DNA of 57,359 bases, the filler included, from Platydemus manokwari (taxonomy: Eukaryota): assembly GCA_037951405.1 (NCBI GenBank). It is 5 parts of 5 records of this genome, joined end to end, with 100 filler letters (N's around TTAATTAATTAA, not from the genome) between each part and the next. Parts side by side here need not be neighbours in the genome. Positions count along the whole stretch, not along the records: positions 36,303 to 46,088 come from JBBMOY011204654.1; 4 more parts are not named here. The stretch is one strand, 5' to 3'. Below the pieces are notes generated by a model. That model ran no database searches. It was given only the letters and a program-made list of their open reading frames with translations, and was not told the origin of the DNA. The position numbers and the translations under genes were made by a program. Below, piece by piece: positions 43,418 to 45,084 of the stretch (position 1 is the first letter of the stretch; every line of letters begins with the position of its first letter).

Positions 43418-45084
43418 ATGCTTTCCGACATTATTCATCTATGCCTATTAATCATTTCCATTGTAGATAAAAAATCCTATACCTTATTATGCTATAATGA
43501 TAGCAATCAGCCAATTCCGATAATCAGTACCTACTATTCAGAATCGATCCTGACTCACAATTTCAGCATCTTAGTGACAAAAGAAGCAGCCTCCGGCAGA
43601 CACCGAAGAAACTTCGAACTTAAAATCGATCTACCTAATAATTTAAAGATCGGGAGTAGAGGTCCTCGCGTAACCACAGCAATATACATTGATGAACCCG
43701 GTAAATATTCAATCAGCAAACTTTTTCCTTATACTCGAAGTACTCACACAAAAGAGAGAATTTATCTTCTTACCACGGATAAACCTGTACCGGTTTACAT
43801 CGCATGTGTGCAAGAACCTTTACGATTAGACAAAAACATAGTCCTAAACATTCAACAATGTGACACACCTTTATACCACAGGCATATCGAATGTCCACAA
43901 GTACTCACAACTTTAGTAATGGAAATGGGTTACGATGATATGACTACAGAGCCACCCTTGCTAATATAAGCAAATATTTATCCTTCATAAGAGCCGACAT
44001 GGGGCTCGAAGATATCAGAAAGACTTTTATTTATTCCAATTCGAACTGTAGGGATGGCACCATATCTACAGTGCCAAGAAGTACAATCTTCCGTGGTCGC
44101 TATCACACTCCTAAATTACCAAGTAACAGTGATCACCAACTCCAGAGTAACCCCTCGAAATTATGTAAGACATTAGCGAAACAAAGGTAATGACAGAGTC
44201 TCCGAAGCAGACATCATTCACCAGTGGGATGAAATGTCTTGCATCTAACAAGTGAATCAACTGATAGATAAACATATTTTAGTTGGCTACAAAGTAGCGG
44301 ATATGTTGGATACATTAAAAATTATATCACTGCGTCTTCTAGGTATTAGAGAGATTGCAAGACCAAAGTCTTTGGAGAATTACGGTTTAGTGCAAGCCAG
44401 CAAGCTAATATTCTCAAAAATCCTTCGAAAAGTGATACCAGATTACACACTTGGAAAATTACATGAACTTAAAATGACACAGACGACCGAGGAAATTCGA
44501 GCCATTTATCTACAAATCGAACATCAATGGATAGATCACTTCCCACTTAAAGAAACCATAATCCATCCAAACACAGTTAAACAATGACAATAAACACGGA
44601 AGTTGCCCCAAAATTAGTAGAAACATACCAAGAGCCCAGCGCACAACCAATGGAAGTGGAACCAATTCATCCTGTTGACACAGTCACTAGTCACTGCCAG
44701 TGAACTTGAGGACCAATGAATTGCGAAATCAATGAGGAGATCACCACAGTGGCCATGGCACAGATGGCAAGGAGACCATCCACATCAACACAACGAACCC
44801 TTAAATTCCTTAATGTCGACATCGACGCAGAAGAGCCACCAGAGTCACCTAAACGAACAAGGAAGGGCAAATCCTATTTGCCAAAACATATATACAAAGC
44901 AATTACATATTAGCACAAACGTTGGCACATGACAGCCATCCAATACACATGCGAGGGGACCTTCAAAACTATGATCTTATGACTCCAAAATCGACACCTT
45001 GAAATCAGGAAACCCAAGAAATCCGAACGAATGGACGATGAATACGACAACGAACTGAAACAGATGATCGAACTCGACGAATGA
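43418..45084 (+). pseudogene. Accessory ORF2 of the element (~550 codons ancestrally) containing a REX4/ISG20-like DEDDh exonuclease fold (~44020-44530)
   Basis: ORFs 43418-43969 and 44252-44587 share one frame, interrupted only by four point stops. The translation across them gives LLFIPIRTVG..VAITLLNYQVTVITNSRVTPRNYV..VSEADI..QVNQLIDKHILVGYKVADMLDTLKI..GIREIA..IRAIY. The tail continues in another frame to 45084. Confidence 0.6.

What the first reader, a model, noticed from the sequence alone, without database searches (positions are those of the whole stretch)
43970..44590. Hidden REX4/ISG20-like DEDDh exonuclease fold in the element's 3' ORF
The ORF track misses this domain because stops fragment it. 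Reading through them gives, in order: LLFIPIRTVG (cf. VALDCEMVG), VAITLLNYQVTVITNSRVTPRNYV (cf. ARVSIVNYxGxVLYDxYVxPxxxV), VSEADI (cf. GITxxDL), QLIDKHILVGYKVADMLDTLKI (cf. LLKGKILVGHxLxNDLxxL), GIREIA (cf. IRDTS) and IRAIY. The acidic catalytic residues are mostly absent in this copy, through decay or because it is a pseudo-nuclease. Established: bdelloid rotifer LTR elements captured DEDDy exonucleases, and arenavirus NP uses a DEDDh domain for immune evasion. Inference: an anti-silencing (piRNA/RNAi) or RNA-processing accessory factor.
Basis: partly seen in the sequence, partly recalled or inferred. Interest (0 to 1): 0.85.

Follow-up and report, generated by a model that had tools for sequence, protein, structure and literature searches.

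The report
Retrotransposon gene with disarmed ISG20-like nuclease
A broken virus-like jumping gene in an animal genome carries an extra gene related to the antiviral RNA-cutting enzyme ISG20, fused to a predicted oxygenase-like domain; its closest relatives have also lost the cutting residues, so the protein likely binds RNA without cutting it and would help the element dodge host RNA defences.

Summary
Confirmed, and extended. The 3' ORF of a decayed env-carrying Ty3/gypsy element holds an ISG20/REX4-type DEDDh domain (about 44.01-44.55 kb). It is invisible to direct searches (Pfam, PDB, a REX4 profile) but has 32 homologs among 1.84 billion proteins (best E 1e-31). Eleven of them hit Pfam RNase_T. 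The family profile hits ISG20L2 at E 2e-28, and the model's top structural match is ISG20 (Z 16.5). Function is untested. Most likely it is a non-catalytic RNA-binding counter-defence factor. Precedent exists (rotifer DEDDy ORF3, KolobokD DEDDh), so this is a new variant of a known kind.

The parts
37603..38880 (+). Fragmented ORFs at the 5' end of the element, unassigned (gag position)
   Evidence: ORF pieces; no Pfam family; no tblastn match to L015/L016 polyproteins
38858..40069 (+). env-like gene: Monjiviricetes (chuvirus/gB-type) fusion glycoprotein in three frameshifted pieces, upstream of pol; N-terminal third not found
   Evidence: PF24664 E 1.4e-6, 8.5e-22, 4.6e-12, profile positions 252-608 of 653; matches L016 env
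40370..40705 (+). Retroviral-type aspartyl protease
   Evidence: PF00077 E 1.7e-6
40850..42751 (+). Reverse transcriptase and RNase H, with internal stops
   Evidence: PF00078 E 2.8e-24, PF17917 E 1.4e-32; about 40% identical to L015 and L016 pol
42675..42899 (+). Integrase zinc finger; integrase core absent from this copy
   Evidence: PF17921 E 8.3e-21, no rve hit; tblastn of the L015 and L016 polyproteins stops at 42869
43517..43942 (+). Accessory gene, N-terminal domain: predicted double-stranded beta-helix (2OG-oxygenase/AlkB/cupin-like) fold without a conserved HxD...H triad
   Evidence: P0122 matches query residues 42-392; model pLDDT mostly 80-96 over residues 31-180; ALKBH6 Z 10.2, viral prolyl hydroxylase Z 9.6, ALKBH7 Z 9.5; conserved columns
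44006..44554 (+). Accessory gene, ISG20/REX4-type DEDDh domain, catalytically dead (0 of 5), two internal stops
44737..45042 (+). Accessory gene, low-complexity C-terminal tail, in another frame
   Evidence: tblastn of the P0122 tail, 25% over 106 aa, E 3e-4 against a 2 kb subject only

Best explanation
The stretch is a decayed copy of a two-domain accessory gene of an env-carrying Ty3/gypsy retroelement, an ISG20/REX4-type exonuclease domain behind a predicted oxygenase-like beta-helix domain, from a branch that has lost the catalytic residues and likely works as a non-cutting RNA-binding decoy that would shield the element's RNA from host 3' exonucleases and small-RNA silencing. Shown: homology, element context, inherited loss of the catalytic residues, purifying selection on related dead and intact genes. 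Predicted: both folds. Inferred: an ancestral element captured a REX4-like host nuclease and fused it to a beta-helix domain; the gene is made from its own spliced RNA; one branch dropped catalysis but kept the RNA-binding scaffold, as Maelstrom and EXD1 did; the target is host RNA surveillance. This copy itself is broken and cannot make the protein.
For: Homology: 32 hits, best E 1.2e-31 over both domains; 11 of 32 hit RNase_T. Fold: pLDDT 80.6, pTM 0.79; ISG20L2 top in Foldseek, E 1.2e-6; ISG20 Z 16.5 and ALKBH6 Z 10.2. A profile of 15 dead relatives alone, without the window and without intact members, still hits ISG20L2 at E 3e-15. Catalytic columns: of 31 aligned homologs, 12 keep 5 of 5, 2 are truncated, 17 keep at most 2; the four best hits keep 0, 0, 2 and 0 of 5. 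Tree: the window groups with six dead open-frame proteins at 98/97, and the whole family is apart from REX4 at 100/100. Context: both loci long enough to show what lies upstream (2 of 7 family loci) have Ty3/gypsy pol there, L016 with env in front of pol as in the window. Selection: dN/dS 0.12 (0.05-0.22) for the dead domain in L012 versus L014, 0.04 for the intact domain, 0.13-0.19 for the N-terminal domain. Scaffold residues outside the active site stay conserved in dead members. AG stands directly before the start codon in 6 of 7 intact ORFs against 63 of 821 ATGs in those loci; rotifer ORF3s are expressed from spliced messages and inactive DEDD derivatives keep RNA binding (PMC5408684).
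Against: No call tests RNA binding, nuclease activity, expression or silencing suppression. The dN/dS for dead genes comes from L012/L014/L015, which join the window's branch only inside a 14-row group with weak support (89/75, long branches meet); 2 of 3 dead-domain pairs are saturated. No dN/dS is available for the window's own family. All 7 family loci come from one metagenome, and the 32 protein hits have no context. The 6 of 7 acceptor count is about three independent lineages, and 1 of 2 dead ORFs shows no AG near its start. The model was built on an alignment that holds intact members. A dead fold could equally be a protein-binding scaffold. The rotifer study found no clear link of ORF3 to copy number.
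Confidence: 0.45

Rival explanations
1. The family serves the element's own replication cycle, not defence: intact members trim 3' ends of element RNA or primers, and dead members act as RNA-packaging or particle-assembly scaffolds.
For: REX4 and ISG20L2 are RNA-processing enzymes (ISG20L2 in rRNA processing, listing). The rotifer authors propose 3'-end processing of element RNA first. A conserved stem-loop lies between the paralogs in L011-L015.
Against: Most Ty3/gypsy elements replicate without such a gene (established knowledge). A core step would be expected to keep catalysis, yet 17 of 31 homologs lost it.
Confidence: 0.25
2. The dead gene is a regulator or partner of an intact paralog in the same element (pseudo-enzyme pair).
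For: Dead-then-intact tandem order in 5 of 7 family loci, L011-L015; both under purifying selection.
Against: The window holds one paralog only (single tblastn place for every query). L016 and L017 hold an intact gene only. The five tandem loci are one related group from one metagenome.
Confidence: 0.12
3. The working part is the N-terminal beta-helix domain, a ligand-binding or decoy module for host 2OG-oxygenases or RNA marks, as in poxvirus C4/C10/C16 or plant-virus AlkB; the dead nuclease is a passenger scaffold.
For: Structural matches to vaccinia C16 N-terminal domains, E 3.6e-5, and to a vitivirus replicase and poxvirus C4L/C10L-like proteins. Tyr, Pro-Asn, Lys/Arg, His and Glu columns are conserved across dead and intact members, 21 to 29 of 31 rows.
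Against: No sequence-level hit to any oxygenase. The nuclease domain is the better conserved part. A shared fold shows no function.
Confidence: 0.12
4. The catalytic residues are missing only because this genomic copy decayed after insertion; the parent gene was an active nuclease.
For: The copy is heavily decayed: stops, frameshifts and a missing integrase core.
Against: The six nearest open-frame relatives in the tree also lack the residues (98/97). Losing all five by neutral decay while the scaffold stays alignable is unlikely.
Confidence: 0.05
5. The motif likeness is chance.
For: Direct tests are not significant.
Against: E 1e-31 to an open-frame homolog, and family-level E 2e-28 to ISG20L2.
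Confidence: 0.01

Closest known systems
DEDDy ORF3 of bdelloid rotifer Juno/Vesta LTR retrotransposons and Terminons (PMC5408684)
   Same: A DnaQ-like 3'-5' exonuclease as a separate ORF behind pol of a Ty3/gypsy element; DEED variants occur there too (here the third acid is E in 6 of 12 intact members).
   Different: Rotifer ORFs are RNase D-like DEDDy, with intact catalytic residues, in elements that lack env. Here the domain is ISG20/REX4-type DEDDh, fused to a beta-helix domain, found beside env, and has a dead branch. An independent capture is inferred.
GAG-ENV-POL errantiviruses with HSV/gB-type env of Nematoda, Bryozoa and Platyhelminthes (PMC13524379)
   Same: gB/chuvirus-type env upstream of Ty3/gypsy pol. 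A planarian env row in the supplement ends in a motif that resembles window 39.0-39.08 kb by eye.
   Different: The paper's main text has no occurrence of 'exonuclease', 'DEDD' or 'accessory'; it does not describe 3' accessory genes.
Planarian Burro/GYPSM1 giant gypsy elements (passages in PMC6431247)
   Same: env in frame between gag and pol, long multi-domain polyproteins, ankyrin repeats (as in L015), accessory ORFs.
   Different: The domains listed for Burro are MATH, BIR, BCL2, SUMO-like, dUTPase and others; no DEDD nuclease is listed in the passages read.
Cellular REX4 / ISG20 / ISG20L2 exoribonucleases
   Same: Same fold and motif order; best sequence and structure matches.
   Different: The element family is a separate clade (100/100 against 8 REX4-like rows), has an extra N-terminal domain, and the window's branch has no catalytic residues.
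KolobokD DNA transposons with a DEDDh nuclease (PMC9587614)
   Same: A transposon-borne DEDDh accessory protein.
   Different: DNA transposon; nuclease similar to Exuperantia, TREX and ERI1, not ISG20/REX4.
Catalytically dead DEDD proteins (Maelstrom, EXD1) and arenavirus NP exonuclease
   Same: Functional models: a dead DEDD fold that keeps RNA binding; a viral DEDDh that suppresses innate signalling (abstract start of PMC7968707).
   Different: No homology beyond the shared fold was tested. Arenavirus NP needs catalysis (recalled), which the window's branch lacks.

Membership tests
DEDDh exonuclease fold (RNase_T, ISG20/REX4 type) | Significant profile or structural match to the DnaQ-like fold | tested here: met
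   Family profile E 2e-28 to ISG20L2; Z 16.5 to ISG20; 11 of 32 homologs over the PF00929 cut-off. The window copy alone has no direct hit.
Active DEDDh exonuclease | D-x-E (Exo I), D (Exo II), H and D (Exo III) | tested here: not met
   Window 0 of 5; nearest relatives 0-2 of 5; 12 distant homologs 5 of 5. Columns near Exo III are gappy, so single calls there are uncertain.
Active DEDDh exonuclease | Metal-dependent 3'-5' exonuclease activity | not testable with these tools
   Needs an assay.
REX4/ISG20 orthologous family | Nests within cellular REX4/ISG20 sequences | tested here: inconclusive
   Separate from 8 REX4-like rows (6 from a search seeded with viral-contig REX4 proteins, 2 cellular-type) at 100/100; no animal ISG20, REXO1 or REXO4 sequences were in the tree.
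Rotifer DEDDy ORF3 | RNase D-like DEDDy type (Tyr in Exo III) | tested here: not met
   Intact members have His in Exo III; top matches are DEDDh, with RNase D far down at Z 9.2. No rotifer sequence was compared directly.
2OG-Fe(II) oxygenase / AlkB | Double-stranded beta-helix fold | tested here: met
   Eight-strand core in the model; ALKBH6 Z 10.2, rmsd 4.3, 145 aligned; ALKBH7 Z 9.5, rmsd 2.9, 140 aligned. The domain was not folded alone.
2OG-Fe(II) oxygenase / AlkB | HxD/E...H metal triad and 2OG-binding Arg | tested here: inconclusive
   Only one His column (26 of 31) and one acidic column (29 of 31) are conserved, on different predicted strands. This does not fit the triad, but the mapping is by strand order, with no residue-level superposition.
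Ty3/gypsy (Metaviridae) element | pol order PR-RT-RH-IN | tested here: met
   Window (integrase core missing), L015 and L016 complete.
Ty3/gypsy (Metaviridae) element | Paired LTRs, PBS and target-site duplication | tested here: inconclusive
   No long direct repeat in window 30-50 kb or in L014-L017; the copy is decayed, lies between assembly gaps, and the contigs are partial. PBS and target-site duplication were not looked for.
GAG-ENV-POL errantivirus (gB-type env) | gB/Monjiviricetes-type env upstream of pol | tested here: met
   Window, L016 E 4.8e-94.
GAG-ENV-POL errantivirus (gB-type env) | gag upstream of env | tested here: inconclusive
   ORF pieces at 37.6-38.9 kb have no family hit; L016 is cut at its 5' end.
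Burro/GYPSM1 | RT phylogeny with Burro; MATH/BIR/BCL2 domains | not tested
   No Burro sequence was available from a tool; only ankyrin repeats in L015 are shared.

The most novel reading that the evidence does not exclude
A clade of env-carrying invertebrate retroelements captured a nuclease of the lineage that vertebrates use as the antiviral RNase ISG20, fused it to an oxygenase-like pseudo-enzyme domain, and keeps it as an armed form, a disarmed decoy form, or a tandem pair of both, to suppress piRNA/RNAi defence: a dedicated retroelement-encoded silencing suppressor in animals.
Probability: 0.25. Interest if true: 0.85.

Novelty: new variant of a known kind. Interest (0 to 1): 0.62.

Why it matters
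Few animal retrotransposons are known to encode their own counter-defence proteins, and the role of captured nucleases in LTR elements has stayed untested since the rotifer report. This family offers natural pairs of intact and dead paralogs with open frames, some in one element. That makes the question 'does it cut, bind or suppress silencing' directly testable without engineering. The beta-helix plus DEDDh fusion was not found in print by my searches. It also points to an unannotated accessory region behind pol in GAG-ENV-POL elements.

Tried and rejected
Direct searches with the window ORF (X at stops) gave nothing: Pfam, PDB sequences, word-indexed protein search twice, 0 of 1707 and 0 of 58 candidates. 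A REX4 profile gave 1.4 bits, below the best of 1722 control tiles of the window (4.9 bits); a refined version timed out with no result. Single-sequence AlphaFold: pLDDT 32.6, unusable. Viral-contig scans: one hit, L001, is a phage terminase-like ORF sharing a 9-residue word, rejected as chance; none for RT or for the family. 4 of 11 metagenome loci (L018-L021) look like cellular REX-type genes and were not counted as family; L018 and L019 went into the tree as outgroup. ESM Atlas: no usable hit for the N-terminal domain of P0122; one 0.77 RNase_T lead for P0128. Complex prediction of the L015 intact and dead paralogs: no verdict, score 0.00, alignments not used by the tool. Sequencing runs: one holder, no RNA holder listed. 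The variant table shows 40 of 753 rows and cannot give dN/dS. Rfam: 0 matches in the window and L011-L017. No whole genome is held, so copies could not be studied there. Rows left out of trees: one search dropped P0152 (under 120 residues) and P0130 (no nuclease domain); one search also dropped rows under 140 residues and P0132 (near duplicate of L011), P0141, P0145, P0146, P0148 (long branches). Earlier findings: three look-ups, nothing shown. A by-eye likeness of the N-terminal domain to cyclic-nucleotide-binding beta-rolls (recalled) was not tested; none is among the rows shown.

Full report
Setting. The window is AT-rich (mostly 21-33% GC) except for a block of 33-42% GC at about 37.5-45.1 kb. 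That block is a decayed retroelement on the + strand. Pfam finds three frameshifted pieces of a Monjiviricetes-type fusion glycoprotein (38858-40069), then protease, reverse transcriptase, RNase H and an integrase zinc finger; the integrase core is absent. No LTR pair is visible. env in front of pol is the GAG-ENV-POL layout reported for Nematoda, Bryozoa and Platyhelminthes (PMC13524379). A flatworm host is my guess from resemblance only; it was not tested. 407 contigs of one public run lay on 42.6-45.5 kb, 58, 54, 143 and 152 of them at 99+, 95-99, 90-95 and under 90% identity, so the 3' region belongs to a multi-copy family; that run may be the window's own source.

The observation. Direct tests are blank or weak: no Pfam or PDB sequence hit, 1.4 bits against a REX4 profile with 71 of 2000 shuffles as high. 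A full phmmer scan of 1.84 billion proteins with the X-read frame gave 32 hits at E<=1e-3; the best (P0122, E 1.2e-31) covers residues 42-392. Eleven of the 32 pass the RNase_T cut-off. A profile of the window plus 28 homologs hits ISG20L2 (2e-28), ISG20 (8e-18) and SDN1 (6e-14). AlphaFold on that alignment gives pLDDT 80.6; Foldseek ranks ISG20L2 first and VIA-align ranks ISG20 first at Z 16.5 over residues 210-383. The alignment holds intact members, so I checked a profile of 15 dead relatives alone: it hits ISG20L2 at 3e-15.

Decay or pseudo-nuclease. The window keeps 0 of 5 catalytic residues. Of 31 aligned homologs, 12 keep all five, 2 are truncated, and 17 keep at most two; the four best hits keep 0, 0, 2 and 0. 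In a 39-row tree rooted on REX4-like proteins the family is one clade (100/100), intact members branch first, the window sits with six dead open-frame proteins (98/97), and all 14 dead rows form one group at only 89/75. So the loss is inherited; one origin or several is open. Scaffold positions such as P-R, G and G-I-R-D stay conserved in dead members.

A second domain. Homology extends upstream to about 43.52 kb. Model residues about 30-183 form an eight-stranded beta-helix matching ALKBH6 (Z 10.2), a viral prolyl hydroxylase (9.6) and ALKBH7 (9.5), vaccinia C16 N-terminal domains, and a vitivirus replicase and poxvirus C4/C10 proteins. There is no sequence hit to oxygenases. Conserved columns are one Tyr, Pro-Asn, Lys/Arg, one His and one Glu. 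By strand order these do not form the HxD...H triad, so a pseudo-enzyme or ligand-binding pocket is inferred. A low-complexity tail runs on to about 45.04 kb in another frame.

Context of relatives. One metagenome scan gave 11 loci: 7 family members, all from one metagenome, and 4 that look like cellular REX-type genes. The two loci that reach far upstream both have Ty3/gypsy pol there. L016 is env-PR-RT-RH-IN in one 3085+ aa frame followed by an intact gene. L015 is pol with a second protease, ankyrin repeats and a membrane tail, followed by a dead and then an intact paralog. L011-L014 show the same tandem order (L011 and L013 only by the dead gene's tail). Pairwise Nei-Gojobori dN/dS: intact domain 0.04 in the 2 of 10 unsaturated pairs; N-terminal domain 0.13-0.19 in 6 of 6; dead domain 0.12 (0.05-0.22) in the 1 of 3 unsaturated pairs. 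AG precedes the start codon in 6 of 7 intact genes against 63 of 821 ATGs, which suggests spliced messages, but these are about three independent lineages.

How it most likely works. Shown: homology, context, inherited loss of catalysis, selection on relatives. Predicted: the two folds. Inferred: the gene is expressed apart from pol; intact members are 3'-5' exonucleases; the window's branch keeps the RNA-binding scaffold and acts as a shield or decoy against host RNA surveillance (0.45). Rivals are a role in the element's own RNA processing or packaging (0.25), regulation of an intact paralog (0.12), a function carried by the beta-helix domain (0.12) and mere decay (0.05). Nothing here tests activity. 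The window copy is non-functional.

What is known. Rotifer LTR elements carry RNase D-like DEDDy ORF3s with intact sites (PMC5408684; I read parts 2-3 of 5). KolobokD DNA transposons carry a TREX/ERI1-like DEDDh (PMC9587614, passages). Burro elements have env between gag and pol and many extra domains, with no DEDD listed (PMC6431247, passages). The errantivirus survey has no mention of exonuclease, DEDD or accessory genes in its main text (PMC13524379; abstract, passages and supplement rows). PMC6338049 (part 1 of 4) cites only the rotifer case for DnaQ-like domains in that part; PMC13269885 (passages) added nothing. Eight full-text searches listed no paper on an ISG20/REX4-type gene, or a beta-helix plus DEDDh fusion, in an LTR element. 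The nematode ERV paper (Sacco 2022) and the planarian genome paper were not held, Repbase reports are not searched, and figure supplements could not be read; any of these may annotate this ORF.

Verdict. Real feature; new variant of a known kind; interest 0.62.

Noticed in passing
L011:388-440, L012:717-769, L013:377-430, L014:1532-1585, L015:8377-8430 and 8455-8508: A conserved 45-base stem, internal loop and hairpin between the dead and the intact paralog; 3 of 10 predicted pairs show a change on both sides. No Rfam match; not found in the window element. Six related copies only, so weak covariation.
   Followed up: partly
L016:9401-9494: Two 42-base direct repeats with GNRA-type hairpins between pol and the accessory gene.
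   Followed up: no
L015:1-6660 and L016:1-9255: Polyproteins with extra protease domains and long C-terminal extensions ending in a membrane segment; L015 has ankyrin repeats after the integrase, as Burro has ankyrin repeats.
   Followed up: partly
L014:3113-3433 and 4038-4625; L013:1910-2227; L017:2688-2969; L016:11205-11639: Further small ORFs behind the intact gene: a shared roughly 100-aa acidic ORF in L013, L014 and L017, a ubiquitin-like ORF in L014 (E 6.6e-7), and a coiled-coil-like ORF in L016.
   Followed up: no
window 42970-43470: Hydrophobic, membrane-like ORF pieces and a 39-base tandem duplication (43204-43281) between the integrase remnant and the accessory gene; possibly the remains of a pol C-terminal membrane tail.
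   Followed up: no
window 9759-10106: Fragment of a second gypsy RT/RNase H.
   Followed up: no
window 7327-8181, 34627-36028, 55462-56292: Decayed DNA transposons: mariner-type (PF01359) and Tc5/pogo-type (PF03221); a Tc1-like remnant near 55.5-56.3 kb by eye.
   Followed up: no
window 11055-12170: A 371-codon open frame with no Pfam family, probably a host gene exon.
   Followed up: no
P0136: A 1113-aa dead family member with a long acidic repeat tail, from a protein catalogue with no contig; could be a host-domesticated copy.
   Followed up: no
L002-L010: REX4-like exonuclease genes with all catalytic residues on viral-collection contigs, used here only as outgroup.
   Followed up: partly
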